44,857 nt of DNA from Escherichia phage phiA2-1. Below are positions 20,167 through 44,143 of the stretch, piece after piece. Numbering within the stretch: position 1 is the stretch's first letter; each line of letters starts with the position of its first letter. Made by a program: the position numbers and the translations under genes. Under the pieces are notes generated by a model. That model had not been told where the DNA came from and made no database searches. It saw nothing but the letters and a program-made list of their open reading frames with translations. The stretch lies in sequence record OR861626.1. One strand, written 5' to 3'.

Positions 20167-20832
20167 CTACTTATCTTTAAGTAGCAACTTGATATCAATT
20201 CCTAGATTATTCTCAATCAATCCAGTCAGTGCACCTACCTTTTCCTTAAGTGCGAAGCACTGTGTTTCATACTTGAATCTCAACTCCATCTCATCAGAGC
20301 GACTTGACCAGCACTGCCGAGCCTCGCACGCTAGCTCATCAATCTTCTTGTCAAGTTCCTTATCTGACAGGGTGATTTCAGTAATTCGCTGCTCAGCTAC
20401 GATTCTCTGGATCAAGTGAGCATTCTGCGCTTGCAGGTATCCATTCTTCATTCTTTCCTCTTTAAGTTCATCAATGCTTACCATCTGACTGATTACTTCC
20501 GCTTGCTTGTTGATGGTGCTTTGCATTTCTTTAAGCTTAGCAAGCACTGCGCGACGAACGAACTTTGATTCTCTCATCCCAATCAAAAGCATCTGTTCCA
20601 TATTGAGCACTGGTGAGTTGATTGACTTTCTATAACCTCCTCTACCCTCACTCTTGATTACGAAACTTTCGTAGTCAAACTCAAACCCTTCAAGCTCATC
20701 CTCTATTCTCTCAACAAAGTCATTGTGTCGAACATTGGACTCCCCAGCGATCAACCTCGCTGGGTTGATAACTTCATTTAAAAACTGATAACTATTCATT
20801 TTTACGTCTTCATTAAGTAATGCTAAGTTCAT
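20167..20832 (-). CDS. Rha-family-like regulatory protein with coiled-coil C-terminal half (putative)
   Basis: Track ORF to 20856; likely start ATG 20832; SNVRHNDFVERIEDEL and MLLIGMRESKFVRRAVLAKL resemble Rha motifs. Confidence 0.4.
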   Translation of the reverse strand: MNLALLNEDVKMNSYQFLNEVINPARLIAGESNVRHNDFVERIEDELEGFEFDYESFVIKSEGRGGYRKSINSPVLNMEQMLLIGMRESKFVRRAVLAKLKEMQSTINKQAEVISQMVSIDELKEERMKNGYLQAQNAHLIQRIVAEQRITEITLSDKELDKKIDELACEARQCWSSRSDEMELRFKYETQCFALKEKVGALTGLIENNLGIDIKLLLKDK

Positions 20833-20856
20833 TTTCGTCTCTCTTTTGTTTTTCAT

Positions 20857-21665: not shown

Positions 21666-22637
21666 ATGACATTTAAAGTTTACACGAACGACGAACTAAC
21701 CAACGAGGCTTATCACGAAGAGCAAGACCATATCTCTGGCTCATCACTGGCTGAGATTCTCGCAACCTCACCAGCTAAATGGAAATTCAAGCAGCGCAAT
21801 AACTCCAGCGCAGCACTTAAGTTTGGCACTCTGAGTCATACGATGATGCTAGAGCGCGAGGTTTTCGATTCAACCTACATGCGAGCCACTGACTTTGACG
21901 AAGTTGAAGGATTGATCACAAGCCAAACAGCTTTATCAGCAGCACTTAAGAAAGTTGGTGTTTCTGGTACGTCAGGAGAGGGCTATAACGAGCTCGTGGA
22001 GATGATGTATAAGTCTGGCGAGGATTGGCCTGTTAAATGGCTAATTGAGCAGCAGGAGAGCGCTGAGGCATTGATTAGTGGCAAGGAGTTGGTTACTGCG
22101 AAAGATTACGACAAGGTAATCTCAATGCGCGAGGTTCTGACCAATATTCCAGCTTACGATTCGGTCATTAATTCACCAACAGCACAGAAAGAGTTATCCA
22201 TCTTTGGTGAGATTTTAGGTTGTGGCGTAAAGGTTAGGCTTGATCACGTTGATGTTGTTGATGGCGTTGTCTACATTACTGACTATAAAACGACGGCAGA
22301 CGCAAGCCCTCGATGGTTTGGTAAGTCGGCTTATGACCATGGATACCTTTGCAAGATGGCACTTCAACGCGATTTGTTTGTGAATGCATTCAGCGAGAAG
22401 CGCAAGGTTGTGGTTCGCCTCCTGGCGCAGGAGAAAACTGAGCCTTACTTACCTATGTGCTACACGCTTACAGATGAGCAGCTTCGCATTGGGCGCATTC
22501 AGTATCTTGAAGCACTGGCTACATACAAACAGTGCAAGGAACTTGATGTGTGGCCTGGTTACAGTAATGGGATTACAGAGCAAGATTTAATGATTCCTGA
22601 GTGGGTAAGTAAAAAGTATCAAGAATTGCTGAAATAG
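21666..22637 (+). CDS. PD-(D/E)XK-family exonuclease (recombination exonuclease, putative)
   Basis: RLDHVDVVDGVVYITDYKT contains a D...D/E-x-K nuclease signature; adjacent to Erf-family gene. Confidence 0.55.
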   Translation: MTFKVYTNDELTNEAYHEEQDHISGSSLAEILATSPAKWKFKQRNNSSAALKFGTLSHTMMLEREVFDSTYMRATDFDEVEGLITSQTALSAALKKVGVSGTSGEGYNELVEMMYKSGEDWPVKWLIEQQESAEALISGKELVTAKDYDKVISMREVLTNIPAYDSVINSPTAQKELSIFGEILGCGVKVRLDHVDVVDGVVYITDYKTTADASPRWFGKSAYDHGYLCKMALQRDLFVNAFSEKRKVVVRLLAQEKTEPYLPMCYTLTDEQLRIGRIQYLEALATYKQCKELDVWPGYSNGITEQDLMIPEWVSKKYQELLK

Positions 22638-22707: not shown

Positions 22708-23358
22708 ATGAAGACTTCAGAGCAAAACAAGCAAGTATTGAAGGCGTTATTTGAGGCTAAATCAAAGTTTGCCAAGGCTGAAAAATCAAAGCAGAACTCG
22801 CACCTAAAGAACAAGTACGCCACTTTAGATGATGTTTTAGCGGCGGTTGAGCCGGGCCTGGCGGATAGCGGATTGGTAATGTTTCAGTCAATGGTTGATG
22901 ATGATGTTAGCTCTCGTATTAAGGTTGAGACTACCGTATACCATGCCGAGTCTGGAGAATGGGTTAGCTTCCTGACAATCGTCCCAATCAGCAAGCAAGA
23001 TGCTCAAGGTTATGGCTCATCACTCACATACGCTCGCCGTTACGCAATTACAGCGGCATTAGGATTAAGCCAAGCAGATGATGATGGTCAGCTGGCAGTT
23101 AAAGGAATTAACTCATTTAAGAAGGATTTGGCTAAGTGCAATACGCTTGATGACCTTCGTGATGTTTACAAAGAAGCGAAACAGTCACTTGATTCAGCAG
23201 GCTGGCTAGTGCTCGAGCCTCACATCATCGAGAGGAAAGCTGAGATTCAGGCTAATGCAACTAACGGTTTTAATCCTGCAAAACCTAAGCAAGTTGCACA
23301 AAAGAATGTTCAAGAAGAAAAAGTTGAAGTACAATCTCAAGAAATCGATACATTCTAA
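22708..23358 (+). CDS. erf: Erf-family single-strand annealing protein
   Basis: 216 aa; GSSLTYARRYAITAALG resembles the Erf signature; sits between exonuclease and SSB. Confidence 0.7.
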   Translation: MKTSEQNKQVLKALFEAKSKFAKAEKSKQNSHLKNKYATLDDVLAAVEPGLADSGLVMFQSMVDDDVSSRIKVETTVYHAESGEWVSFLTIVPISKQDAQGYGSSLTYARRYAITAALGLSQADDDGQLAVKGINSFKKDLAKCNTLDDLRDVYKEAKQSLDSAGWLVLEPHIIERKAEIQANATNGFNPAKPKQVAQKNVQEEKVEVQSQEIDTF

Positions 23359-23398: not shown

Positions 23399-23830
23399 AT
23401 GAGTCACGTAATCACTGGTGTTATCCGTCGCGCTCCGTTCACTAAAGAAGGTCAGAATGCCAATGGCACCTGGAAGATGTACGCAGTTGATTTAAACGAG
23501 CGATACAAGGATAAAGATGGACAGGCGCATTATAGCAACTATCGCGCCGTGTTCTTCGCCAAAGAATCAATGCTTGCTTGGTACGATGAGGCTTTCCAGG
23601 AGGGGAAGGTTGTTAGCGTAAGTTGTGAAACATTGGCTGTAGACGTTCGTGATAAAGATGGTAAAACTTATGTAACAATCAACATGAACAACCCGCGACT
23701 TGAGTTTAGTCAGCGTGGTGAAGGTGTCCAGCAACAACAGCAACAGCAAAAACCACAACAGCAACAGCAACAACAGCAGCAGCGTCAACCTCAACAGCAG
23801 AAGAACTTCGAGGATGATATCCCCTTCTGA
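23399..23830 (+). CDS. ssb: Single-stranded DNA-binding protein with Gln-rich linker
   Basis: 143 aa; OB-fold-like N-terminus; poly-Q linker; acidic C-terminal tail ending DDIPF. Confidence 0.75.
   Translation: MSHVITGVIRRAPFTKEGQNANGTWKMYAVDLNERYKDKDGQAHYSNYRAVFFAKESMLAWYDEAFQEGKVVSVSCETLAVDVRDKDGKTYVTINMNNPRLEFSQRGEGVQQQQQQQKPQQQQQQQQQRQPQQQKNFEDDIPF
23720..23800 (+). repeat. (CAR)n trinucleotide repeat encoding the poly-Q linker of SSB
   Basis: CAGCAACAACAGCAACAGCAA...CAACAGCAGCAGCGTCAACCTCAACAGCAG. Confidence 0.6.
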
Positions 23831-25012: not shown

Positions 25013-25036
25013 ATAAAAAACCTCCCGAAGGAGGTT
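25013..25036 (-). terminator. Rho-independent terminator (minus strand) after the primase-like gene
   Basis: ACCTCC-CGAA-GGAGGT hairpin with A-run on plus strand (U-run on minus). Confidence 0.45.
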
Positions 25037-25958
25037 AGTTTATTAAGTCGTTGGCTTTGTACACTTTCTTGCGTATGCCTGTTTTAAATGACTTACCGTC
25101 ATTGGGAATCACCACATCAACATTGCGATCGTCAGCAACAGCAAGGATATCGATATCATAATCATGGCAAGCAATTCTGAACTTCCTTGACTTGTCGCGG
25201 TGTATAACCATCTCCATATTGTAACAGGAGAAAGCAACAAACACCTCGCGACCCCCAGTAGCAAGGTGAACACGTACGCCATCAATATAATTGTCAACAA
25301 CATAAGTATAACTATTGTCCTGCCTAGAACCAATGACAGCAACAGAATCACGAGTATAATCACCAGCAAGGAACTTAACATTTGAATCCTCATCAATAAA
25401 CATTACGTTACAGAACTCATCACCAAGCCCATCCTCATAAACCATGGAGCAAGGCACGGCATGAATCATTGAACCATCTTTAGCTATACCAACATCAAAA
25501 CCAGATTCAGAGTATATACCCTCATATGTCGTGAGTGGACTTGAGTCAACTCGCTGAGTTCTCCCCATGACCTCCAAAACTTTTTCATGGTCTACTTGAG
25601 CGCCCATCTTATAACGATGAGTTCTGGATGCTTGCTTGTTTGCTTTAACTATAACCTCAATTGGTGTTAAGTTCAGCCAGTCACCAAGCAAATTTACTGA
25701 ATCGGCGAAGGACGATCCAGTGCACTTCATGACCCATCCTATACCGGAGTCACTTCCGCATTTCGAACAAACTGCCGCGCCATTTCCTTTTTCACTGCCT
25801 ATTTCGTCGGTAAATCTGAATCTGTCAGTGCCAAAGCAGTATGGGCATGGTCCGTGCTTCTTACTTAGGTGTCTATCATTCCAACCAAGTTCCTTTGCAT
25901 AAAATGATTTCCACAATCCGGCCATCTTAGGTATAACTTCATTCTTATCGTAATTCAT
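25035..25958 (-). CDS. DNA primase-like protein (zinc-ribbon plus TOPRIM-like region)
   Basis: CPYC...CSKCG zinc-binding motif; acidic AVADDRNVD segment; located in replication block. Confidence 0.45.
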   Translation of the reverse strand: MNYDKNEVIPKMAGLWKSFYAKELGWNDRHLSKKHGPCPYCFGTDRFRFTDEIGSEKGNGAAVCSKCGSDSGIGWVMKCTGSSFADSVNLLGDWLNLTPIEVIVKANKQASRTHRYKMGAQVDHEKVLEVMGRTQRVDSSPLTTYEGIYSESGFDVGIAKDGSMIHAVPCSMVYEDGLGDEFCNVMFIDEDSNVKFLAGDYTRDSVAVIGSRQDNSYTYVVDNYIDGVRVHLATGGREVFVAFSCYNMEMVIHRDKSRKFRIACHDYDIDILAVADDRNVDVVIPNDGKSFKTGIRKKVYKANDLIN

Positions 25959-26434
25959 TTGCTTAACCCGTGATTTTCGTGAAAGTTGTATTTTCTCTCT
26001 GCTTCAATTCTTACTTTATACGCCTGCTCTGGAGTATCGAAGTTCCCAAGGTGTAGCTGCTTGCCGTCAACCTTGATGTGAGCCTTAAATTTTCCGTGAT
26101 TTAGCTTTACCACTCCACAATAACCAGTTGTTGATAAAACGCTAAGATTGCAATTTCTTGAGTTACCTTGATTTGTTGTTACTCTTAGGTTTTCTATTCT
26201 GTTATCTAATTTGTTATGGTTTATATGATCAATGTAGTCGCCATTTTGAAGTTCTCCATTAAACATCTCCCACACAACTCTATGTACATAAGTCCTAAGG
26301 CCATTAACAGACACTTTGTAATAGCCAGATGTAGATAGTGAGTTGCACTCATCGCCAACCTTAACACGTCTTGCAGTGCTAATCTTCCAATGCAATTTGC
26401 CATCTACATAGTAAAAATAATCATGCCAGTTCAT
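25955..26434 (-). CDS. HNH homing endonuclease (HNH plus AP2-like region)
   Basis: Motifs HRVVWEMFNG, IDHINHN, NLRVT; third paralog of the same family. Confidence 0.7.
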   Translation of the reverse strand: MNWHDYFYYVDGKLHWKISTARRVKVGDECNSLSTSGYYKVSVNGLRTYVHRVVWEMFNGELQNGDYIDHINHNKLDNRIENLRVTTNQGNSRNCNLSVLSTTGYCGVVKLNHGKFKAHIKVDGKQLHLGNFDTPEQAYKVRIEAERKYNFHENHGLSK

Positions 26435-27056: not shown

Positions 27057-29051
27057 ATGCATCCAGTAGAGCGCTTAGTAGCCAACTTTGATCAAGAGAA
27101 GATTAAGCAGATTCAGAAGGATTATCAGTTTGGAAATATTACGCCGTATCCATTCCAGTGCGTGACATTCGACCAAATAGGTAAGCACATTGCTAAGTAC
27201 GAAGCGCCATTCATAGCAGACCTTTCTGTATCTGCTGGTAAGACAATCATTCTTGCCATGATTGGGAAACGCATGGAGCAGCTTGGCCTTCCTTATATGG
27301 TGCTATCTCGCCAGTCTGAGATTATCAGCCAGAACGCTGAAGAGCTTCGTAACTTCGGCATCCGTAATAGCGTATATTGCGCTGGCCTTAACGTTAAATC
27401 AGTTTACTACCCAACTATAGTGGCTAGTGAGGGAACGGCTGCCAACGGCTTGTTTAAGGGCCTTGGTGACTACGTTCCTGCTGTTATCGCGATAGATGAG
27501 GCGCACATGGTGGACCACATGGATATCGTAGAAGCTGAAGAGAACGAGGAAACATTCGAGCAGATGAGCACAAAGAAAGGTGAGATGGTTTTCAAGGATG
27601 GAGTGAATACCGGATTGCTTGGCACTGGTCGTGCGAAGTACACGCTAATCATTACCGAGATGAAGCGACGCTGCAAAGAGAAGTATGGTCGCGAGCTACG
27701 TATTTTCGGTTTGACTGGTAGCCCGTACCGTAACAACGACCACATTGTAGTTAGTAACCCAAATGTTCGTGGATTCTGGCGTAAGACGGTAATGCAGGTT
27801 CCAACCAGTTACCTTGTTGAATTTGGCTTCGTGGTTCCTACTGTTTACGGCGAGGTTGGCGATTTGGGTTATGACCTTAGTGAGTTCGCGCCTGATGGAA
27901 GTGATGGCGTTAAGGATTTCAGCAAAAAAGAAATGGACGCAATGGCTGAAAAGATTCATGAAAACCAGACCATGACGCAGAAAATTATGAAGTTCGTTAT
28001 CAAGCTACTTGAAACGCGTAACGCCGCATTGGTAACTTGCGCTAGCAAAATGCACTGTAGCGAAGCGGCAGCCGCGCTACCTGATGGCTATCCTTACGCG
28101 ATAATCACTGATTCTACTGGTGAGAAGAAAAGAAGGGAGATTCTCGATGAATGCAATAAAGGAAAGTACAAGATCATATTCCAGATTGGGTGCTTAACAA
28201 CAGGCGTGAACCAACCTTTGTGGGATACTAGTGTGATTCTTCGCAAGATTGGTAGCCTTACACTCATGATTCAGTTACTTGGTAGGGGGATGCGTAAGCT
28301 TAAAAAATGTCACGTTGAAGCTGGATTCCAGAAGGATGACCATGTGGTTCTTGACTTCGCTGGCGCTCTTGATGATATGGCTGAGATTTACTTTGACCCG
28401 ATTATTGAAGAGATTCAGAATGAGAAATTCAAATCATCACGCAATGGTGGAGATGAAGTAAGGATGTGTCCTCAATGTGGTTATGAGAATTCACCGTTCG
28501 CTCGACGTTGCAACAATAAGATAGATGGAGTTAGGTGTGATCACTTCTTTACTTTTGCATTATGTGAAGATATAAAGGATACGCAGACTGGAGTTATTAC
28601 CAAGAAGGGTTGTGGTGCTCGTAACGATATAGCAGCTAAGTGCTGTCGAGAATGCGGCGAGCAAATGAAGGACCCGAATGCCAACCTAACCGGTAAGATG
28701 TACCGCCGCGGAGATTACCTTCGTGTTTACGGATTTGAACTTGGACTTAGCAAGAACCAGTCAGGAATCGTAGTTAAGTACGATATCATGGCTCACACCG
28801 GTGAGCGCTTTAATGCATGGGAATTCTTCAATCCAGAGTCTGAACATAGGGTTTGCAGTGTTCTATGGAAGAACTTTTGCCTTGCTCATATAGAGAGTCG
28901 CGCTGAGGCCACAAGAATTGGCATACTTCGCAATGCGAGAATGATTATGACGAATGCCAGCAAGTTTCGAGCGCCAGTACAAGTTACACACAGAAAAAAC
29001 GGCAAGGGTAAAGATGTTATAGCTCATAAAATATTTGGAGAATTGCAATGA
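27057..29051 (+). CDS. ATP-dependent DNA helicase (SF2, DEAH-type) with C-terminal zinc-ribbon motifs
   Basis: Walker A SAGKT, motif II AIDEAHM, QLLGRGMR; C-terminal CPQCG and CCRECG. Confidence 0.7.
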   Translation: MHPVERLVANFDQEKIKQIQKDYQFGNITPYPFQCVTFDQIGKHIAKYEAPFIADLSVSAGKTIILAMIGKRMEQLGLPYMVLSRQSEIISQNAEELRNFGIRNSVYCAGLNVKSVYYPTIVASEGTAANGLFKGLGDYVPAVIAIDEAHMVDHMDIVEAEENEETFEQMSTKKGEMVFKDGVNTGLLGTGRAKYTLIITEMKRRCKEKYGRELRIFGLTGSPYRNNDHIVVSNPNVRGFWRKTVMQVPTSYLVEFGFVVPTVYGEVGDLGYDLSEFAPDGSDGVKDFSKKEMDAMAEKIHENQTMTQKIMKFVIKLLETRNAALVTCASKMHCSEAAAALPDGYPYAIITDSTGEKKRREILDECNKGKYKIIFQIGCLTTGVNQPLWDTSVILRKIGSLTLMIQLLGRGMRKLKKCHVEAGFQKDDHVVLDFAGALDDMAEIYFDPIIEEIQNEKFKSSRNGGDEVRMCPQCGYENSPFARRCNNKIDGVRCDHFFTFALCEDIKDTQTGVITKKGCGARNDIAAKCCRECGEQMKDPNANLTGKMYRRGDYLRVYGFELGLSKNQSGIVVKYDIMAHTGERFNAWEFFNPESEHRVCSVLWKNFCLAHIESRAEATRIGILRNARMIMTNASKFRAPVQVTHRKNGKGKDVIAHKIFGELQ

Positions 29052-30838: not shown

Positions 30839-30919
30839 AGTACGCCACCCTAGTAGCATTAGTACCACTGTTTAGCTTTACTATCTTATATTTTATCGTG
30901 ATGAACTAAGGACTTGAAA

Positions 30920-32056
30920 ATGGCAGTAGCAAAAATTAGCAACGAGCAGTTGACAGAAGAATTGAGAAATGGCCTAACAAACAAGGCGATTGCGGAGAAG
31001 TATGGCATGAACATTCGCAATGTTGAGCTTCGTCGCAGCAAGTTGGCCAAGAGTGGACTATTCGGGCACGGAAATGAAGGTATCAAGAAGCTAGTGCCTG
31101 ATGGCTATATGGTAAAAGGCACTTCGACAATGATTGATGCGGAAGGGAGAGAGAAGCTGCGCTGGGTTAAGACTTCCATTGATTCAGAAAAACAAGAAGA
31201 GATGCTTCAGCAGATTGTTCAGGCCCTTACTGATGAGGTTCCTCGCGAGGCTCCGAAGCCGCTCAGTGAATCAAGCTATGAGGACACTTTAAGTCTCTAC
31301 CCTGTATTTGATATGCACATTGGCGCGATGGCTCACCATGCGGAGTGCGGAGAAAACTACAGCACAGAAATTGCTGAGCGAGTACTTAACCAGTACTTTG
31401 ATTATGCGGTCGCAAAAGCTCCAAATTCATCGAAGGCCGTGTTACTAATTGGGGGTGACTTCTTGCATTCAGATAGTCTGGAGGCTGTGACACCAACAAG
31501 CAGGCACTCATTAGACCAAGATAGTCGATATCATAAGTTAGTCTATGTTGCTGTGCGATCAACTCGCAGAGCTATCAGCAGGATGCTTGATAAGCACAAG
31601 GAGATTGAGGTGCAAATCATCCCAGGCAACCACGATTTAAGTGGTATGATTTGGCTTCGAGCCGCTATGGCCGCTTTTTACATGGATGAGCCGCGCGTAA
31701 ATGTTGATGCTTCACCAGCAGCGCTTCACGTTACACATTTTGGCAAGACGCTTTTGGGTTATTGTCATGGTCATGAGTTGCGTAAGCCTGACACTCGTCT
31801 TTCAACACTTGCGCGAGACCACCGCAAAGCATTTGGTAGTGCTGAGTATGTTTATACACACAGCGGCCATTACCACCATCAGACAGTTACTGAGGGTAAT
31901 TTAGGTATTGATGAGTCGCACGGACAGTTGGGTTGTAAGGATGCGTACAGCGCAAACGGAGGGTATCGTTCTTATCGTCAGGCTTCAGTAATCATCTATA
32001 GCCCAGAGTATGGTGAAGTTGGTCGATTCACTTGCCGTCCTGAAATGTTTAAGTAA
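30920..32056 (+). CDS. Metallophosphoesterase-domain protein with N-terminal HTH-like region
   Basis: Track ORF from 30914; ATG 30920 after AAGGA; GDFLH, GNHD, GHELR, GHYHH motifs; N-terminal LTNKAIAEKYGMNIRNVELRR. Confidence 0.55.
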   Translation: MAVAKISNEQLTEELRNGLTNKAIAEKYGMNIRNVELRRSKLAKSGLFGHGNEGIKKLVPDGYMVKGTSTMIDAEGREKLRWVKTSIDSEKQEEMLQQIVQALTDEVPREAPKPLSESSYEDTLSLYPVFDMHIGAMAHHAECGENYSTEIAERVLNQYFDYAVAKAPNSSKAVLLIGGDFLHSDSLEAVTPTSRHSLDQDSRYHKLVYVAVRSTRRAISRMLDKHKEIEVQIIPGNHDLSGMIWLRAAMAAFYMDEPRVNVDASPAALHVTHFGKTLLGYCHGHELRKPDTRLSTLARDHRKAFGSAEYVYTHSGHYHHQTVTEGNLGIDESHGQLGCKDAYSANGGYRSYRQASVIIYSPEYGEVGRFTCRPEMFK

Positions 32057-32116
32057 TAGCACTTTTTGTCAAAACATAGCGACTAAAAGTCGCTATTATT
32101 GTTTTATCGAAACGAG
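32056..32116 (+). promoter_or_regulatory. Promoter-like cassette containing a perfect 9-bp-arm palindrome in the spacer
   Basis: ATAGCACTTTTTGTCAAAA, 22 nt (includes ATAGCGACT-AAA-AGTCGCTAT), TATTAT, ATCGAAACGAG leader. Confidence 0.5.
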
Positions 32117-32275: not shown

Positions 32276-32291
32276 AATGAGAGAGAAAAAA

Positions 32292-32474
32292 ATGAACAAC
32301 GTTAAACTTAAGTGTGTATCAAACTCATCTAAGTCACTTGATTTTATCACTGGTGACACCTATGAGGCTCAGAATCGTGGCGATGGATTGTACAACGTGA
32401 CCACATCAAAAGGTTGGTGCTTGATTTGCCCACTTGACGGTTATTTCGTTAAGTTTGCTGAAGTTTCAGAATAA
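32292..32474 (+). CDS. Hypothetical small protein (paralog family)
   Basis: Track ORF from 32277; ATG 32292 has the better RBS; similar to 29958 and 32492 ORFs. Confidence 0.4.
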   Translation: MNNVKLKCVSNSSKSLDFITGDTYEAQNRGDGLYNVTTSKGWCLICPLDGYFVKFAEVSE

Positions 32475-32491: not shown

Positions 32492-32665
32492 ATGACTAAA
32501 TTATACTGCGTTAAAAACAACTCAAAAACCCTTCCGTTTACCGAAAACCAGCCATATAGCGGAGAGGCTCTTGGCAGTGGTTACTACAAGATTTACGGCG
32601 ATGACATGACGCACATCCTTGCGCCTATTGATGGCTCTTTAGTGGAATTTATTATCGCAGATTAA
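32492..32665 (+). CDS. Hypothetical small protein (paralog family), not in ORF track
   Basis: Hand translation MTKLYCVKNNSKTLPFTENQPYSGEALGSGYYKIYGDDMTHILAPIDGSLVEFIIAD. Confidence 0.35.
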   Translation: MTKLYCVKNNSKTLPFTENQPYSGEALGSGYYKIYGDDMTHILAPIDGSLVEFIIAD

Positions 32666-32689: not shown

Positions 32690-32717
32690 GTGGGGGGCCT
32701 TTTGGCTCCCCTTTTTG
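32690..32717 (+). terminator. Rho-independent terminator
   Basis: GGGGGGCC-TTTT-GGCTCCCC plus T5. Confidence 0.5.
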
Positions 32718-32720
32718 TGC

Positions 32721-32749
32721 TTACAATCCACACCGGCCTAATGTATTAT
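32721..32749 (+). promoter_or_regulatory. Sigma70-type promoter upstream of lysis genes
   Basis: TTACAA, 17 nt, TATTAT. Confidence 0.4.
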
Positions 32750-32792
32750 ATTTACACTATCTATTGACAAATTAGGATTTTAAGGTGATCAC

Positions 32793-33008
32793 ATGAGGGA
32801 AGTACTTAACGCTGCTACGGCATCAACTGGCGGGGCAGCTGTAACTGGCGCCGCAACTGGTCAAATGACCATCGCAATAATCAGTATTATAGCTCTTGTC
32901 GTTTTTGGGTTATGGGGCGCTTACTGGAAGTTTAAGGATAGCCAGGCAATTAGACGGGCGCTTGAATCAGGAGACCTAAAGAAGGCAATAAAGATAAGGA
33001 GTAAGTAA
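32793..33008 (+). CDS. Holin (pinholin-like)
   Basis: 71 aa; Gly/Ala-rich weak TM segment then strong TM (MTIAIISIIALVVFGLWGAYW); charged C-terminus; directly before endolysin. Confidence 0.6.
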   Translation: MREVLNAATASTGGAAVTGAATGQMTIAIISIIALVVFGLWGAYWKFKDSQAIRRALESGDLKKAIKIRSK

Positions 33009-33493
33009 TGAAGCAGAAGCTTGTGATTAGTGCAGCGACGGCAGCGGCAATATACATCGCAGCGCCGATTATTGAGCTTGTTGAAGGTGTTGAGTACAGG
33101 CCTTATAAGGATATAGCAGGGGTGTGGACAATTTGCAGTGGGATAACTGGCCCAGACGTTATTATCGGAAAGACATACACAAAATCAGAGTGTAGGAGAT
33201 TGTTAGAAAAGCACATTCAGATTCACGGAAAGTATGTGCAGGATGCAGTTACCTATCCAATAGCACCAGAAACAATGGCGGCTTTAATCAGCTTTAGCTA
33301 CAACGTTGGCGGTTCCGCGATGAGGAAGTCAACGGCTGTCAGGTTGATTAACCAGGGTAAGATTGAGGAAGGATGCAAGGCTCTCGGGATGTGGAATAAA
33401 GCTATGGTTAATGGCAAGCTGAAGGTTATCAAGGGCCTAGCAAACAGGCGTAACGAGGAAATCAAATTATGCTTAAGCGGGGTGGGTAAATGA
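33008..33493 (+). CDS. SAR endolysin (T4-lysozyme-like muramidase)
   Basis: N-terminal Ala/Ile-rich SAR-like segment; catalytic-type spacing E-x8-D-x5-T (ELVEGVEYRPYKDIAGVWT). Confidence 0.7.
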   Translation: MKQKLVISAATAAAIYIAAPIIELVEGVEYRPYKDIAGVWTICSGITGPDVIIGKTYTKSECRRLLEKHIQIHGKYVQDAVTYPIAPETMAALISFSYNVGGSAMRKSTAVRLINQGKIEEGCKALGMWNKAMVNGKLKVIKGLANRRNEEIKLCLSGVGK

Positions 33494-33876
33494 GGGCTGT
33501 GGTAATTGCTGCGGTAATTCTGCTTTCCGGCTGTTCGGCAACATCTGCACTGACCGGGTTAATTGGCAGCAAACCGGAGATAAGTGCTCAGGCAGGTGCG
33601 GAGAATAACAAGGTTGGCGTTGGCCTGACTAACAAGGTTGATTCAAGTTCCAGCGCAAAGGCTGAAGTGAAGAACTCAAAGGTTGACACCCTTGATAGCT
33701 CGAGCGGAAAGAAGACTGCTGACAACTCAATCAAAGCGTCAACAATCACGGCAGAGAAGATTGAAATCACCAATAATGATTCGTCTGCCATACCGTGGAT
33801 TGGAAGCGGAATCATGTTGTGCATCATCATCATTCTGCTTTTAGTTATATTCAGGAAAAACAAAAAAGCCCCGTAA
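33490..33876 (+). CDS. Unimolecular spanin (lipoprotein signal plus C-terminal TMD)
   Basis: Lipobox LLSGC at N-terminus; C-terminal TM IMLCIIIILLLVIF; last gene of lysis cassette. Confidence 0.6.
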   Translation: MRAVVIAAVILLSGCSATSALTGLIGSKPEISAQAGAENNKVGVGLTNKVDSSSSAKAEVKNSKVDTLDSSSGKKTADNSIKASTITAEKIEITNNDSSAIPWIGSGIMLCIIIILLLVIFRKNKKAP

Positions 33877-33890
33877 TGGGGCTATTTTTA
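33860..33890. terminator. Bidirectional terminator
   Basis: AGCCCC-GTAA-TGGGGCT flanked by A-run and T-run. Confidence 0.5.
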
Positions 33891-34226: not shown

Positions 34227-35810
34227 TCACCCCAACAGTCGTGGATTAATGTAAATCTTATCGCCAATCAGGCACGTATAGTTTTTCTCATCAAGCATCG
34301 GAACCAAGTGGTCTTTTATGCGAGTCATGACTCCAGCCTGAGCTTCGAAAGGCTTAACCTTGCGCGCTGCTTCATATAATGAGCGAATACCAACAACGCC
34401 CTTCCCATTCTTGCCCTGCTTAATCAGGATATCAACCAGCTTGTTCATCTCCGCATTGTCACCAGCATGACCAGCAGCACTAGCAGATGACAAATACGTC
34501 TTGCTTAGTTCGTGGAAAATCATAACCGCTTCCTGCATTGTCTCAAGTTCAATCTCTCTGGACTTCTGAGGACTCGACCCGGCTGGCGCGAACCAGTTGC
34601 GAATAACATGCAGAACAGAAGCGATACGAATTGCTTGCTTATCAAACTTACCTAGCGCACCACGTAACATTGTGTGGGAATACTTACCGCCATCACCAAG
34701 ATGCGGCTCCATCTCCTGACGAGCGCGGTTGAGGTAACGCATGGATGACGCACTTACAGTCAGTTTCACTTCAACTTCATTCATAATCTCATGAACGAGC
34801 CGGAAGTAATCAGCCTTCAACCCACCATCAATAGCCTCATAGGTTGAATCTCCATTCTCATCAACAAACACACGGTCGCCAAGGAATGACTTTTCACGCA
34901 CCAGAAGAAAACGTTCAGATACACCAATACCACGCGCACCAGCATTCATAATAGCATTGATTGTTTCATCCTGAGCAATTACAGAAATACATCCCATAGC
35001 CACAAAACTCATGTTGTTTTCTGCGTTAGCGCGCGCAATAGATACGTTACCAGCATCCCACGCCTTAAGCACTAGCTCGCTGTTCGTTTTCTTTGAGCCA
35101 TCTCCGTATGTCATGCCAAGCAGTGAGTTTACGCTTGTTGCCTCATCCGAGATTACAGCAAAGTTTCCCTGTCGGTTGTTTATTCGCGCAAGACCTTCCG
35201 GCGTAGTATCGGAGACCGGGAATACTATATCGCATAGCTTCTCGAGCTTTTCCTCTAAATCCTCCTTCTCTTCAAATAGTGATGCCATCTCAGAAGGTGA
35301 CTTCTCCTGCTTCATCTCTTTTGATAGAGCGGATAGCTTAGCCATAATCTTTTTGCGGTCACGCTTGCGCACTTCATTCAACCGCTCAGTCTCAGCGATC
35401 ATTGGCGCAATAGATAGTGAGTTGATGGCAGATTTACCAGTTGAGGGAGGCTGGCTTGTTACAACGTACAAAGATGTTGGCTGCTGAGTTCCATGATATT
35501 CAACCGTAAAGCGCCCAAGCATTGCAGCAGACACGCAACCCAGAAAGTGCATGTAAGCTGAAGACTCTGGAAACTGAACTGAACGAGCAATATTGGCAGA
35601 TAGCTTACCAACGATATCAATGTCATTACCTAATGATATGACAGGATACTTGTCATTACCTGCATCAATCTCGACAGGTGTTTTCCAGAATGATTGTGAT
35701 TGTCGATAACCATTTGCATTAATGGCCACGCGCAGGGGTGGGAGGTTGTCATTGGCGGCAATTGCCATAACCTGTTCAACAGATAGTTTATCTTCGTTGA
35801 AATCAAACAT
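34227..35810 (-). CDS. P-loop NTPase, putative replicative helicase
   Basis: 527 aa; Walker A-like SQPPSTGKSA; N- and C-termini repeated in the truncated paralog at 38698. Confidence 0.45.
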   Translation of the reverse strand: MFDFNEDKLSVEQVMAIAANDNLPPLRVAINANGYRQSQSFWKTPVEIDAGNDKYPVISLGNDIDIVGKLSANIARSVQFPESSAYMHFLGCVSAAMLGRFTVEYHGTQQPTSLYVVTSQPPSTGKSAINSLSIAPMIAETERLNEVRKRDRKKIMAKLSALSKEMKQEKSPSEMASLFEEKEDLEEKLEKLCDIVFPVSDTTPEGLARINNRQGNFAVISDEATSVNSLLGMTYGDGSKKTNSELVLKAWDAGNVSIARANAENNMSFVAMGCISVIAQDETINAIMNAGARGIGVSERFLLVREKSFLGDRVFVDENGDSTYEAIDGGLKADYFRLVHEIMNEVEVKLTVSASSMRYLNRARQEMEPHLGDGGKYSHTMLRGALGKFDKQAIRIASVLHVIRNWFAPAGSSPQKSREIELETMQEAVMIFHELSKTYLSSASAAGHAGDNAEMNKLVDILIKQGKNGKGVVGIRSLYEAARKVKPFEAQAGVMTRIKDHLVPMLDEKNYTCLIGDKIYINPRLLG

Positions 35811-38149: not shown

Positions 38150-38698
38150 ATGCAGAAAGTAACGCTTGGTGAAGTTATTCGTGAGATGGTACGAAAGGCG
38201 ATGGAATCGGAAAGTGGTGAGTTTAAGGTTCCAGTCAGCCAGATATTCAAAATGATTCGCGGAAGGTCGTACCCGGAAATGGAGTATGACACTGAGACGG
38301 ATGAGATATTGAATTTGGCAGACCGGTCATTACCTGAGCTTAAGAACTCATACATCTACAACACCGTGTCACGAATGACAGACTTACGAGACGCAAACAA
38401 GAGGGCGCGATATAAATTTATCTGGATTGATGACGAAGGAGAGCAGACAAACGCAAGGCAATTTGATGGTGATGGTGCTGATAAGTACTTGGTTATATAC
38501 ATTGAGAACGGTGCGCACTGGACTGGCAATCGGGAGAAGAAGAAACAAGAAGCTCAGAAAGAGGCGACCACCATTGAAAGGTTCAAGGCCAGAATCCTGA
38601 AACTCATGCCATCAGTGACTGAATTTGAAGGCGATGAGATTTCCGGTGCTATCAAGGCAATCAAAATGTACCAGGAAATGATTAAGGAGACAAAATAA
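38150..38698 (+). CDS. Hypothetical protein (first gene after control region)
   Basis: 182-aa ORF. Confidence 0.4.
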   Translation: MQKVTLGEVIREMVRKAMESESGEFKVPVSQIFKMIRGRSYPEMEYDTETDEILNLADRSLPELKNSYIYNTVSRMTDLRDANKRARYKFIWIDDEGEQTNARQFDGDGADKYLVIYIENGAHWTGNREKKKQEAQKEATTIERFKARILKLMPSVTEFEGDEISGAIKAIKMYQEMIKETK

Positions 38699-39120
38699 TG
38701 TTTAACTTTAGCGATAACAAGCTCACCACTGAAGAAATTATTAAAATCGCTGAGAGTGATGGGCTTCCAGTTATCAGCGTGGCAATCGAAGCGAATGGAT
38801 ACAAGCACTCTCAATACTTATGGGGTCACATTGGTGTATATGATGTTTTCAAGGGTAGCGACCTTGCGATTATTATTAAGAATCTCGAAAAGTTCAGCAA
38901 AAGCGGAAGCTATGTGGTTACTGTGAAGACACTGCACGAAAGCGTATTCGCCATGCGAGAAATCGGGCCACATGAAAGGCTTCATGATGAACTTATTCCG
39001 CAACTTGAGGTGATGAACATTGCTTTCCTTATCGGCAATAATATTTACATTAATCCTGCTCTTGCAGATTCAAGCTGGAATCCTAATTTTAAAGCCCGAG
39101 AAGATGAGCACCCTAGTTGA
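38698..39120 (+). CDS. Truncated paralog of the 34227..35810 helicase (N- and C-terminal segments only, no ATPase core)
   Basis: MFNFSDNKLTTEEIIKIAESDGLP...AIEANGYKHSQ aligns with MFDFNEDKLSVEQVMAIAANDNLP...AINANGYRQSQ; C-terminal LIGNNIYINPAL aligns with LIGDKIYINPRL. Confidence 0.45.
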   Translation: MFNFSDNKLTTEEIIKIAESDGLPVISVAIEANGYKHSQYLWGHIGVYDVFKGSDLAIIIKNLEKFSKSGSYVVTVKTLHESVFAMREIGPHERLHDELIPQLEVMNIAFLIGNNIYINPALADSSWNPNFKAREDEHPS

Positions 39121-42043: not shown

Positions 42044-42550
42044 ATGAGCAAAGCAGCATTAAAGATGGGTGAGGGAAACTTCAAGGCGCTTTACAACAAG
42101 AAGTATGGCGATATTGCTATGGTTGCAATCAACCGCAAGTACACGCCAGAAGAGGTGTTTAATTTTGCCGTTAGATACTTCTCCTGGGCTGAGGGTGAGG
42201 CAATTAAAGCTATCGAGACAGCGGCTTTCCAGGGTGTGGTTAGTGAAAGCCTGGTGCACAAGCCTCGGGTATTCACCTTAACTGGCCTGGCACTCTTCAT
42301 GGGTGTTAATATCAATAGGTTCGCTCGCTGGCGCGGTGAGGCTGGGTACTCTGACGTGATGGAGTTTATTGATAACGTAATCTATGAGCAGAAATATCAG
42401 CTTGGCGTTGCAGGTATTATCAACTCCACCATCGTTGGTAAAGAGCTTGGCATTGATAAGCCGCAGGAGATTACCATTAGCAACAACTCCACAGCTAACG
42501 ACGTTGATAGCATGAAGGAAGCGCTGGAATCTGTGATAAGTAAGTTATAA
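42044..42550 (+). CDS. Terminase small subunit (putative)
   Basis: 168-aa ORF immediately upstream of terminase large subunit; AAGGAGG RBS; HTH-like FTLTGLALFMGVNINRFARWR. Confidence 0.55.
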   Translation: MSKAALKMGEGNFKALYNKKYGDIAMVAINRKYTPEEVFNFAVRYFSWAEGEAIKAIETAAFQGVVSESLVHKPRVFTLTGLALFMGVNINRFARWRGEAGYSDVMEFIDNVIYEQKYQLGVAGIINSTIVGKELGIDKPQEITISNNSTANDVDSMKEALESVISKL

Positions 42551-42568
42551 CAACAAGAGGGCATAACA

Positions 42569-44143
42569 ATGAGTGACGTTTTGGTCTGGGAGGAACTATC
42601 CCAATCAGAGAAGCAAGCCGTCAAGCTTCTGTCTACGCATAACTTCGAGACTTTCCTTCGGGTATGGTTTAGCCTTACCCAGGGCCAGAAGTACATAATG
42701 AACTGGCATCATAGATACCTGTGCAGAATAGTTGACGAAATTATAAGCGGTGAGAGAAAGGATACAATCATTAACGTATCGCCTGGAGCTGGTAAAACCG
42801 AGATTACATCCATCCACTTTCCAGTTTACAGTTATCTAAAACTACCAAAAGTGCGAAACCTTAGCCTGTCATTCTCTGACAGCCTGGTTAAGCGAAACTC
42901 AAAGCGAGTTCGTGACCTAATTAAGTGCCAGGAGTTTCAGGAGCTATTCCCAAGCAAGTTTGGCACTTGTAAGGATGACGAAATTCAGGTTCTTGATGAG
43001 TCAGGCAAAGTGCGGTTTGAGTCGATATCAAAGGCTATTGGTGGCCAAATAACTGGGTCACGCGGCGGCTACATTACCGACACTTACAGTGGCTGTCTAA
43101 TGCTGGATGACGTTGATAAAGTCGATGATATGCTCAGTAAGGTTCGCCGCGAGTCGGTTCATATGCTTCTGAAGAACACCATTCGCTCTCGTAGGGCCAG
43201 CTCGGTCAAGGGGAGGGCCACGCCAATTATTTCCATACAGCAGCGATTGCATGTTAACGACTCAAGTTGGTTCATGGCTGAATCTGGCGGCATGGGGATA
43301 GATTTCGATGTGGTGAAGATTCCAGCAATCGTAACCGAGGATTACATCGACACACTTCCTGACTGGTTAAGGCCACACTTCGAGGCTGACGTTCTATCTA
43401 GCGAGTACATCGAGCGGGATGGGGTTAAATACTACAGCTACTACCCACAGAAGGAATCAATTCACGATTTAATGGCAATGCAAGACGCCGACCCATACAC
43501 GTTCGCAAGTCAATATATGCAAAGCCCCATAGCTCTCGGCGGCAACATGGTGGATACGGATTGGTTTATTCGTTACGGTGGGGATTTGCGAGCGCCATTG
43601 AAGTATGATTACCGATTCATTACTGCGGATACCGCACTTACCACGAAGTCATACAGTGACTTTAGCGTATTCCAGTTATGGGGAGTAAAAGATAGGAAGC
43701 TATACCTTCTTGATATGGTTAGGGGTAAGTATGAAGCACCCGAGCTTGAGGCGACGCTATTGGATTTTGAAGCAAAAGCAAGAGCCACAAGTCGCGAGGA
43801 GGGAATACTCCGTAAGGTAATTATCGAGAAGAAGGCATCTGGTATTGGCCTAATTCAGTCCGCTGGTAGAGTTATGCGCACACCTATTGAGCCATTCATA
43901 CCAGATACAGATAAGGTTACCAGAGTGCTGTCGGCAATACCTCAGATTAAGGCTGGCAATGTAATGATTCCAGAATCAGCACCGTGGATGAGTGCATTCA
44001 TCTCTGAGTTTTCAGCATTTACAGCAGACATGAGCCACCGCCACGACGACATTGTGGATACAACAACAATGGCAATCAACTGCGAACTAAACCTTGCAGA
44101 TGACCCTAAATCTCGAATGTTACGCCTCGCGGGAATTAAATAA
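42569..44143 (+). CDS. Terminase large subunit
   Basis: 524 aa; Walker A-like VSPGAGKTE; C-terminal nuclease-like acidic residues; followed by portal. Confidence 0.75.
   Translation: MSDVLVWEELSQSEKQAVKLLSTHNFETFLRVWFSLTQGQKYIMNWHHRYLCRIVDEIISGERKDTIINVSPGAGKTEITSIHFPVYSYLKLPKVRNLSLSFSDSLVKRNSKRVRDLIKCQEFQELFPSKFGTCKDDEIQVLDESGKVRFESISKAIGGQITGSRGGYITDTYSGCLMLDDVDKVDDMLSKVRRESVHMLLKNTIRSRRASSVKGRATPIISIQQRLHVNDSSWFMAESGGMGIDFDVVKIPAIVTEDYIDTLPDWLRPHFEADVLSSEYIERDGVKYYSYYPQKESIHDLMAMQDADPYTFASQYMQSPIALGGNMVDTDWFIRYGGDLRAPLKYDYRFITADTALTTKSYSDFSVFQLWGVKDRKLYLLDMVRGKYEAPELEATLLDFEAKARATSREEGILRKVIIEKKASGIGLIQSAGRVMRTPIEPFIPDTDKVTRVLSAIPQIKAGNVMIPESAPWMSAFISEFSAFTADMSHRHDDIVDTTTMAINCELNLADDPKSRMLRLAGIK

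What the first reader, a model, noticed from the sequence alone, without database searches (positions are those of the whole stretch)
30920..32056. Metallophosphoesterase fused to an N-terminal HTH-like domain
Calcineurin-like phosphoesterase motifs (GDFLH, GNHD, GHELR, GHYHH) follow an N-terminal segment resembling a DNA-binding HTH. The combination suggests a DNA-targeted nuclease or phosphatase, for example for repair, or a nucleotide-signal-degrading enzyme that would be relevant to anti-defence.
Basis: partly seen in the sequence, partly recalled or inferred. Interest (0 to 1): 0.45.

Follow-up and report, generated by a model that had tools for sequence, protein, structure and literature searches.

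The report
HTH-tethered nuclease-type metallophosphoesterase of T1-like phage
This phage gene encodes a two-metal phosphoesterase with a DNA-nuclease-type active site joined by a flexible linker to a small DNA-binding domain; it is a typical member of a very large, conserved phage family that nobody has tested experimentally, so it is fairly ordinary but its role is still open.

Summary
Window 30920-32056 (+) is a 378-aa gene of Escherichia phage phiA2-1 (Drexlerviridae); the window is its whole genome. The protein has an N-terminal three-helix HTH (res 8-44), a flexible linker, a conserved beta-hairpin plus helix (61-106), and a complete calcineurin-like metallophosphoesterase (MPE) core (120-377).

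All seven metal ligands are conserved in 78-81 of 81 relatives at 30-40% identity. So are two histidines (H183, H238), at the positions shown to be essential for DNA cleavage in Pseudomonas nuclease MPE.

A confident AlphaFold model (pLDDT 92.5) is closest to the PolD DP1 exonuclease, Mre11 and SbcD. It has no capping domain, and the genome encodes no Rad50/SbcC partner.

The family is PHROG 704, labelled "DNA repair exonuclease". It occurs in more than 2000 phage genomes, is core in Drexlerviridae, and also sits in the nin-like region of a prophage.

Best reading: a stand-alone, HTH-tethered DNA nuclease of phage DNA metabolism. This is inferred, not shown. The anti-defence, signal-degrading reading has no support.

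It is a new member of a known but uncharacterised family. The most interesting open possibility is that it is the unidentified host-DNA-degrading nuclease of T1-like phages.

The parts
30908..30912 (+). Shine-Dalgarno-like AAGGA, 7 nt upstream of the ATG
   Evidence: Read directly from the sequence. It supports ATG 30920 over the in-frame TTG at 30914.
30920..32056 (+). Whole coding sequence: 378 aa plus TAA stop. HTH-metallophosphoesterase, PHROG 704.
   Evidence: ORF list. phrog_704 E=9e-146 with full-length coverage. Identical to the hypothetical protein of Escherichia phage phiA2-1.
30941..31051 (+). N-terminal three-helix HTH domain (res 8-44). The putative recognition helix is res 32-44 (IRNVELRRSKLAK).
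   Evidence: AF2 helices 8-16, 21-28 and 32-44, pLDDT about 94. Profile hit to GerE 1fse, E=0.02. Pfam HTH families hit in family members. pI 10.0.
31052..31099 (+). Flexible linker (res 45-60)
   Evidence: pLDDT 59-69, with 50-52 below 50. Variable in length across the family: the N-terminal region before W82 ranges from 66 to 116 aa.
31100..31237 (+). Family-specific conserved beta-hairpin (res 63-87; G76, W82 nearly invariant) plus helix 89-106
   Evidence: AF2 strands 63-72 and 78-87 and helix 89-106. W82 is 79/81 and G76 is 73/81. Distant phage homologues begin to align here.
31277..32050 (+). Metallophosphoesterase catalytic core (res 120-377)
31307..31318 (+). Motif I, FDMH (metal ligands D131, H133)
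   Evidence: Both 81/81 conserved.
31454..31468 (+). Motif II, GDFLH (bridging ligand D180; nuclease-type H183)
   Evidence: D180 is 81/81 and H183 is 79/81. H183 is positionally equivalent to P. putida MPE His81 (PMC7826289).
31487..31528 (+). Family-specific conserved insert between motifs II and III, VTPTSRHSLDQDSR (T191, D199, D201, R203)
   Evidence: T191 81/81, D199 80/81, D201 74/81, R203 77/81. This is the most conserved non-motif segment. Its function is unknown.
31625..31636 (+). Motif III, GNHD (ligand N237; general-acid H238)
   Evidence: Both 81/81. H238 is equivalent to MPE His113.
31766..31783 (+). Motif IV, HGHELR (ligand H283)
   Evidence: H283 is 81/81; H285 is 67/81.
31865..31879 (+). 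Motif V, GHYHH (ligands H317, H319)
   Evidence: H317 is 78/81 and H319 is 81/81.
32076..32096 (+). Terminator-like hairpin 20 nt after the stop codon (weak T tail)
   Evidence: Pattern scan and a perfect 9-bp inverted repeat. This is a consensus match only.

Best explanation
The gene encodes a catalytically competent binuclear (probably Mn2+-dependent) metallophosphoesterase. Its active site is of the DNA-nuclease type seen in Mre11, SbcD, PolD-DP1 and bacterial nuclease MPE. A basic three-helix HTH domain is attached to it through a roughly 15-residue flexible linker.

Proposed mechanism:
- The HTH docks the enzyme on DNA.
- The two metals, held by D131, H133, D180, N237, H283, H317 and H319, activate a bridging water.
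- H238 protonates the leaving group, and H183 positions H238 or a flanking phosphate.
- A DNA phosphodiester is cut.

The enzyme would work alone, without a Rad50/SbcC-like ATPase and without a capping domain. It is probably transcribed with the early/middle helicase operon. It would serve phage DNA metabolism, for example by trimming or opening ends, hairpins or branched replication/recombination intermediates alongside the phage RecE-like exonuclease, Erf and SSB.

Shown here: the domain architecture, conservation of the catalytic residues, the fold, and the genomic contexts. Inferred: the substrate (DNA), the metal, the expression timing and the biological role.
For: - Full catalytic set conserved in 81 relatives at 30-40% identity.
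- The family profile's best MPE-type sequence hits in the PDB are Tm Mre11/SbcD (E 0.14-0.15) and Nuclease MPE.
- H183 and H238 occupy the positions of MPE His81 and His113, which are essential for DNA cleavage but not for bis-pNPP hydrolysis (PMC7826289). That paper also documents a monomeric MPE nuclease with no capping domain and no Rad50 partner.
- The HTH is present throughout the family, including divergent long-N-terminus members, and is basic.
- Context in the window: helicase, about 10 small ORFs, then this gene, with RecE-like exonuclease, Erf, SSB and primase nearby.
- Context in an Ectopseudomonas prophage: it follows NinB and a RusA-like resolvase, i.e. the nin recombination region.
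- Two other phage MPE families have been shown to cut DNA in vivo or in vitro: T5 A1 (bioRxiv 10.64898/2026.04.02.716235) and mycobacteriophage Gp48 (PMC12287305).
Against: - No activity has been measured for any member of the family.
- Sequence profiles do not link the family specifically to SbcD (hhalign 2.6%), T5 A1 (1.6%) or Bxb1 gp47 (13.6%).
- The catalytic core is slightly acidic (net -4, pI 6.5), and several family-specific conserved residues are acidic (D185, D199, D201, D341). That is not what one expects of a DNA-binding groove.
- The GNH histidine is also common in non-nuclease diesterases.
- An HTH could serve regulation rather than substrate targeting.
- Co-transcription with the helicase operon is inferred only from the absence of a predicted + strand promoter nearby.
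Confidence: 0.5

Rival explanations
1. Host-chromosome-degrading nuclease. The protein would be the so-far unidentified enzyme by which T1-like phages break down host DNA for nucleotide reuse, acting like T5 A1 or mycobacteriophage Gp48. It would be a third, independent phage MPE lineage doing this job.
For: - T1 and TLS degrade the host genome, and the responsible gene product has not been identified (PMC11447400).
- TLS gp66 is the 58%-identical ortholog at the same position.
- The T5 MPE A1 is essential and sufficient for host DNA degradation.
- Cluster A mycobacteriophage MPE Gp48 degrades genomic DNA in vivo and in vitro.
- The gene is core in Drexlerviridae and lies in the early/middle region.
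Against: - The family also occurs in temperate-type phages and prophages: Xanthomonas PBR31, which has a repressor and Q, and an Ectopseudomonas chromosomal prophage. Wholesale host DNA destruction is not expected there.
- There is no specific homology to A1 or Gp48/Bxb1 gp47 beyond the superfamily.
- Other nucleases in the genome (RecE-like, HNH) are equally untested candidates.
- The classical T1 host-degradation mutants were viable. I recall this rather than having checked it.
Confidence: 0.18
2. Regulatory phosphatase, or a DNA-bound regulator. This would be a fused functional analogue of the adjacent lambda genes ninH (Fis-like HTH) and ninI (Ser/Thr phosphatase). Sitting at the early/late boundary, it would modulate transcription or host proteins rather than cutting DNA.
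For: - Recurrent position just upstream of lysis or packaging genes in unrelated lineages: Drexlerviridae (before holin), Dhillonvirus JL1 (before TerS/TerL), Xanthomonas PBR31 (after Q, before TerL), Rhizobium RHEph19 (after lysozyme), and the prophage L011, where it takes the ninH/ninI slot after NinB and RusA.
- The HTH matches Fis-type HTH_8 in 17 of 81 members and aligns to lambda NinH over the HTH core (hhalign 50%, E 1.6e-4).
Against: - No similarity to NinI (hhalign 0.5%).
- Motif II is GDxxH, not the PPP-type GDxVDRG.
- The HTH is the least conserved part, while the catalytic site is invariant.
- The NinH match is generic HTH similarity over 25 columns.
Confidence: 0.1
3. Anti-defence phosphodiesterase that destroys cyclic-nucleotide or other nucleotide immune signals.
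For: - A weak NCBIfam hit to 'anti-phage phosphoesterase' DS9_1 (E 0.027, 13 bits against a cut-off of 420).
Against: - Core, syntenic, single-copy gene in 508 of 522 Drexlerviridae and present in more than 2000 phage genomes. Known anti-defence genes are usually accessory and patchy.
- A DNA-binding HTH has no obvious role for a soluble small-molecule substrate.
- No PADLOC hit.
- Nucleases outrank the cNMP phosphodiesterases structurally.
- The NCBIfam hit is far below its cut-off.
Confidence: 0.06
4. DP1-like 3'-5' proofreading or primer-trimming exonuclease that assists the host replisome. T1-like phages encode no DNA polymerase.
For: - TLS authors label the ortholog 'proof-reading exonuclease (gp66)' (PMC11447400).
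- The window contains a primase and two helicases but no polymerase among the annotated ORFs.
Against: - There is no DP2-like partner.
- The family also occurs in phages that encode their own polymerase nearby, such as Rhizobium RHEph19.
- The label in the TLS paper is an annotation, not an experiment.
Confidence: 0.08

Closest known systems
PHROG 704 ('DNA repair exonuclease'), e.g. TLS gp66, phiEB49 gp12, JL1 gp03
   Same: Full-length match at E=9e-146. 58% identity to TLS gp66 at the same genomic position. Same HTH, hairpin and MPE architecture across the family.
   Different: Nothing of substance: this protein is a typical member. The family name is a computational label, and I found no experimental study. 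The deposited record for phiA2-1 calls it 'hypothetical protein'.
Mre11 / SbcD nuclease subunits
   Different: No capping domain, since the protein ends 58 residues after motif V. No Rad50/SbcC-like ATPase is encoded in the genome. It has an N-terminal HTH and hairpin instead. There is no specific sequence-profile relationship (hhalign 2.6% to E. coli SbcD).
Pseudomonas putida nuclease MPE (PdeM), a stand-alone Mn2+ ssDNA endonuclease (PDB 6NVO)
   Same: A stand-alone MPE nuclease with no capping domain and no Rad50. The His at D+3 of motif II and the His at N+1 of motif III, both essential for DNA cleavage, are conserved here as H183 and H238. Weak sequence hits: TIGR04123 PdeM at E 6.5e-4 and 6nvo at E 0.8.
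Archaeal PolD small subunit DP1 (3'-5' proofreading exonuclease)
   Different: DP1 has an OB-fold and works only within the DP1-DP2 polymerase. Identity is 12%, and no such partner is present here.
Phage MPEs shown to attack host DNA: T5 A1 (phrog_1745) and cluster A mycobacteriophage Gp48 / Bxb1 gp47 (phrog_221)
   Same: Early-region phage MPEs with all five motifs. They provide the functional precedent for DNA degradation.
   Different: They are different families: hhalign probability is 1.6% for A1 and 13.6% for Bxb1 gp47, and the PHROGs are separate. The HHMER/PHROG matches show no shared HTH-hairpin N-terminus. Motif I of Gp48 is at residue 10, and A1 is 556 aa.
Lambda NinH plus NinI (Fis-like HTH protein followed by a Ser/Thr phosphatase)
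   Same: An HTH and an MPE side by side at the same genomic position: the end of the nin region, before the late genes. The HTH core aligns weakly with NinH.

Membership tests
Calcineurin-like metallophosphoesterase superfamily (Pfam clan of PF00149) | Five ordered motifs supplying seven metal ligands: DxH, GDxx(D/H), GNH(D/E), H, GHxH | tested here: met
   D131, H133, D180, N237, H283, H317 and H319 are present and conserved in 78-81 of 81 relatives.
Calcineurin-like metallophosphoesterase superfamily (Pfam clan of PF00149) | Beta-sandwich MPE fold | tested here: met
Calcineurin-like metallophosphoesterase superfamily (Pfam clan of PF00149) | Pfam PF00149 score above the gathering threshold | tested here: not met
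   18.6 bits against a cut-off of 21.5. Only 16 of 81 relatives hit at E below 0.01. This reflects the limited sensitivity of the HMM and does not contradict the fold and motif evidence.
PHROG 704 | Significant full-length match to the family HMM | tested here: met
   E=9e-146, residues 4-377 against profile positions 2-389 of 390.
Mre11/SbcD nucleases | C-terminal capping domain following the phosphoesterase domain | tested here: not met
   The protein ends at residue 378, 58 residues after motif V. The model shows only core strands there.
Mre11/SbcD nucleases | Partner SMC-like ATPase (Rad50/SbcC) encoded alongside | tested here: not met
   All ORFs of 400 aa or more in the complete genome are the tape measure protein, tail protein J, two helicases and TerL.
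Mre11/SbcD nucleases | Specific sequence-profile relationship | tested here: inconclusive
   The family profile hits Tm Mre11 only at E 0.14-0.4. hhalign to E. coli SbcD gives 2.6%. Mre11 and SbcD are nevertheless among the top structural matches.
Nuclease-type MPE active site (Mre11, SbcD, P. putida MPE) | His at D+3 of motif II and His at N+1 of motif III, required for DNA cleavage | tested here: met
   H183 is 79/81 and H238 is 81/81. The positions are defined by MPE D78/H81 and N112/H113 in PMC7826289. This is necessary but not sufficient for nuclease activity.
Nuclease-type MPE active site (Mre11, SbcD, P. putida MPE) | Metal-dependent cleavage of DNA | not testable with these tools
   Requires biochemistry.
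PPP-type Ser/Thr phosphatases (lambda NinI) | GDxHG, GDxVDRG and GNHE signature, and PPP fold | tested here: not met
Class III cyclic-nucleotide phosphodiesterases (CpdA, Rv0805) | MPE fold with cNMP-PDE-specific similarity | tested here: inconclusive
T5 A1 family (phrog_1745) | Sequence homology to A1 | tested here: not met
   hhalign probability 1.6%, with only the GNHD motif aligned. A1 maps to a different PHROG.
Tri-helical HTH DNA-binding domains (LuxR/GerE, sigma-70 region 4, Fis-type) | Three-helix bundle with an HTH sequence signature | tested here: met
   AF2 helices at 8-16, 21-28 and 32-44. GerE 1fse at E 0.02. Pfam Sigma70_r4_2 at 1.5e-9 and GerE at 2.4e-8 in relatives. For this protein alone there are only weak FixJ and TtrR hits, E 0.04-0.07.
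Tri-helical HTH DNA-binding domains (LuxR/GerE, sigma-70 region 4, Fis-type) | Actual DNA binding and its specificity | not testable with these tools
   The only supporting observation is basic charge (pI 10.0). No palindrome was found upstream of the gene.

The most novel reading that the evidence does not exclude
PHROG 704 is the missing host-genome-degrading nuclease of T1-like phages, the function that the TLS/T1 literature says is still unassigned. It would be a stand-alone, Rad50-independent, HTH-tethered Mre11/DP1-like nuclease. That would make it a third independent metallophosphoesterase lineage, after T5 A1 and mycobacteriophage Gp48, recruited by phages to destroy or silence host DNA. 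It would also be the likely producer of the mononucleotide danger signals sensed by systems such as Metis and PUA-Cal-HAD.
Probability: 0.15. Interest if true: 0.55.

Novelty: new member of a known kind. Interest (0 to 1): 0.3.

Why it matters
The family is one of the most widespread uncharacterised enzyme families in tailed phages. It appears in 2048 phage records and 5440 50%-identity clusters, and it is a core gene of Drexlerviridae, which includes many therapeutic and laboratory-contaminant coliphages.

Assigning its substrate would correct a propagated, untested label. The current annotations are 'DNA repair exonuclease', 'oxidoreductase', 'protein phosphatase' or 'hypothetical'. It could also identify how T1-like phages process their own DNA or degrade host DNA.

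For this particular window, the finding is an ordinary member of that family rather than something unusual.

Tried and rejected
- **Direct PDB sequence search with the single protein:** no hit even at E of 10.
- **PADLOC:** no hit.
- **Homology to T5 A1, lambda NinI, E. coli SbcD and Bxb1 gp47 by profile-sequence hhalign:** only motif-level or weak matches, at 1.6%, 0.5%, 2.6% and 13.6%. I therefore do not file the protein in any of those families.
- **The search for related loci on bacterial genomes with alignments A2 and A3:** failed because no stretch was conserved enough. A single-protein query with the Xanthomonas phage homologue worked and gave one clear prophage.
- **Search for an operator-like palindrome upstream of the gene:** none found.
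- **Literature searches for experimental work on this family:** nothing was found in Drexlerviridae or in defence-escape studies. The m6dAMP-sensing papers map escape to T-even denA, not to this family.
- **Idea that the gene belongs to the lysis cassette, as the 'exonuclease-holin-endolysin-spanin module' wording suggests:** rejected as a functional link. A hairpin at 32076-32096, a strong terminator at 32692-32711 and promoter-like sites at 32720-32778 separate it from the holin gene.

Full report
**What the window is**

The query protein is 100% identical to a hypothetical protein of Escherichia phage phiA2-1, whose contig is 44,857 bp, the same length as the window. The nearest phage records are Braunvirinae of the Drexlerviridae: phage ES shares 84.7% nucleotide and 93.4% amino-acid identity. 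PHROG annotation of the window gives a standard T1-like map:
- head protease, major head protein, tape measure protein and tail protein J;
- RecE-like exonuclease (21666-22637), Erf (22708-23358) and SSB (23399-23830);
- tail fibre (-), primase (-, 25035-25958), HNH (-) and a regulator (-);
- a helicase (27057-29051), followed by about ten small + strand ORFs;
- the gene in question (30920-32056);
- three small ORFs, then holin, endolysin and spanin (32793-33876);
- a second helicase (-), and TerS/TerL (42044-44143).

**Checking the observation**

The ORF runs from ATG 30920 to TAA 32056 and encodes 378 aa. An AAGGA sequence 7 nt upstream supports this start over the in-frame TTG at 30914.
- D131-x-H133 (motif I);
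- G-D180-F-L-H183 (motif II);
- G-N237-H238-D (motif III);
- H283-G-H (motif IV);
- G-H317-Y-H319-H (motif V).

Pfam's Metallophos model scores only 18.6 bits, below its cut-off of 21.5. None of the 120 closest database homologues carries a precomputed Pfam domain either. This explains the 'hypothetical protein' labels.

The assignment is nevertheless secure:
- PHROG 704 matches at 9e-146 over the full length.
- A profile search of 1.84 billion representative proteins finds 5440 clusters at E of 1e-3 or better and 1386 at 1e-30 or better. Most are 370-420 aa.
- In an alignment of 81 representatives only 30-40% identical to the query, D131, H133, D180, N237, H238, H283 and H319 are invariant, H317 is 78/81 and H183 is 79/81.

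**Structure**

A first AlphaFold2 model built from 34 close homologues was mediocre (pLDDT 74). A second, built from the 81-sequence alignment, is confident (pLDDT 92.5, pTM 0.79). It shows:
- three helices at 8-16, 21-28 and 32-44;
- a low-confidence linker at 45-60;
- a beta-hairpin at 63-72 and 78-87, then a helix at 89-106;
- the MPE core at 120-377.

**The N-terminal domain**

For the query alone, the only sequence signals are weak hits to the LuxR-type HTH of FixJ and TtrR (E 0.04-0.07). At family level the signal is clear:
- The profile hits GerE (1fse, E 0.02) and several response-regulator HTH domains over residues 10-59.
- Individual relatives hit Pfam HTH_1 (18 members), HTH_8 (17), Sigma70_r4_2 (9, best 1.5e-9) and GerE (4, best 2.4e-8).
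- Relatives with longer, poorly aligning N-termini still carry an HTH.

The domain is basic, with pI 10.0 and net charge +4, whereas the core has pI 6.5. It is the least conserved part of the protein. The hairpin (W82 79/81), an insert between motifs II and III (VTPxSxHxLDxDxR, with T191 invariant) and the loop at 320-353 are family-specific and strongly conserved.

**What kind of enzyme**

In Pseudomonas putida nuclease MPE, His81 lies three residues after the motif II aspartate and His113 follows the motif III asparagine. Both are essential for DNA cleavage but dispensable for bis-pNPP hydrolysis. That enzyme is a monomer with no capping domain and no Rad50 partner (PMC7826289). The equivalent residues here, H183 and H238, are conserved in 79/81 and 81/81 relatives.

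The protein cannot be filed as Mre11/SbcD:
- It ends 58 residues after motif V, so it has no capping domain.
- The complete genome has no SbcC/Rad50-like gene.
- hhalign to E. coli SbcD aligns only motif III (2.6%).

**Genomic context elsewhere**

tblastn finds the family in 2048 phage records from Escherichia, Klebsiella, Salmonella, Vibrio, Campylobacter, Flavobacterium, Rhodobacter and other hosts. [quoted passage not shown] TLS gp66 is the ortholog, at 58% identity and the same position. The TLS authors call it a 'proof-reading exonuclease' without experimental support.

In other lineages the gene again lies at the early/late boundary:
- before TerS/TerL in Dhillonvirus JL1;
- after Q and before TerL in Xanthomonas PBR31;
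- after the lysozyme gene in Rhizobium RHEph19;
- near endolysin and head genes in a Vibrio phage.

In a chromosomal prophage of Ectopseudomonas composti it follows O-like, DnaC-like, NinB and RusA-like genes and precedes the terminase. That is the slot occupied in lambda by ninH (a small HTH protein) and ninI. The NinH/NinI parallel is positional only. NinH aligns over 25 HTH columns and NinI does not align at all.

In the window itself, a hairpin at 32076-32096, a strong terminator at 32692-32711 and promoter-like sites at 32720-32778 separate the gene from the holin gene. No + strand promoter-like site is predicted between 30043 and 32145. The gene is therefore more likely the last large gene of the helicase operon than part of the lysis unit.

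**Interpretation**

The best-supported reading is a stand-alone DNA phosphodiesterase (nuclease), tethered to DNA by its HTH and serving phage DNA metabolism. I give it a confidence of about 0.5. Architecture, catalytic competence and fold are shown here. DNA as the substrate and the biological role are inferred.

A specific and more interesting version is that this is the nuclease by which T1-like phages degrade host DNA. TLS authors state that this function is still unassigned, and two unrelated phage MPE lineages perform it. The presence of the family in temperate phages and prophages argues against this as the family-wide role, so I put it at about 0.15-0.2.

The remaining readings are less likely:
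- The regulator or phosphatase reading rests only on gene position and the HTH (about 0.1).
- The anti-defence signal-degrading reading has no positive evidence. It is disfavoured by the gene's core status, the universal HTH and the structural ranking (about 0.06).

**Verdict**

This is a normal member of a very large, already annotated but experimentally untouched phage family, not an unusual feature of this genome. Interest is modest (0.3). Its value lies in flagging a tractable, widespread enzyme whose substrate is unknown.

Noticed in passing
window 38698-39120 (+) versus 34227-35810 (-): A 140-aa ORF looks like a 'mini' copy of the 527-aa helicase. Its first 42 residues are 50% identical to the helicase N-terminus, and its residues 35-122 are 34% identical to the helicase C-terminus (439-525). 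The roughly 400-aa ATPase core is missing. It could be a decoy, a regulator or a remnant.
   Followed up: partly
window 32277-32474 and 32492-32665 (+): Two tandem paralogous small ORFs (65 and 57 aa, 35% identical, both phrog_4788) lie between the phosphoesterase gene and the holin gene. This is the position where a 2026 paper (PMC13164509) describes a standalone SH3/DUF7244 protein in Drexlerviridae. Here it appears duplicated. I did not verify that phrog_4788 equals DUF7244.
   Followed up: partly
window 32692-32711 and 33867-33883: A strong GC-rich terminator-like hairpin with a T tract lies just before the lysis cassette. A hairpin that scores as a terminator on both strands lies right after the spanin gene, where + and - strand transcription converge. 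These are pattern matches only.
   Followed up: no
window 25955-26434 (-); TLS endY (L015 9966-10637); L003 7128-7598; L005 7064-7573: HNH homing-endonuclease genes are scattered through the replication region. In several relatives (TLS, Salmonella ST521_1H4, Vibrio 98E30-1) one sits directly next to the phosphoesterase gene. PHROGs also contains half-length families (phrog_20703 and phrog_20762) matching only the N- or C-terminal half of this protein, which suggests split or interrupted copies in some phages.
   Followed up: no
window 20167-20856 (-): A 229-aa ORF matches an 'anti-repressor' family (phrog_8235, E 6e-83), in a phage lineage generally regarded as virulent.
   Followed up: no
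family alignment A4 (relatives with 400-480 aa): In longer family members, the consensus between the HTH and the catalytic core seems to contain two copies of the 'PxG...S...D..G' hairpin motif. The conserved hairpin may therefore be duplicated in some lineages.
   Followed up: no
phage database annotations of homologues: The same family is variously annotated as DNA repair exonuclease, oxidoreductase, protein phosphatase, calcineurin-like phosphoesterase, metallo-dependent phosphatase-like or hypothetical. 'Oxidoreductase' is almost certainly a propagated error.
   Followed up: partly
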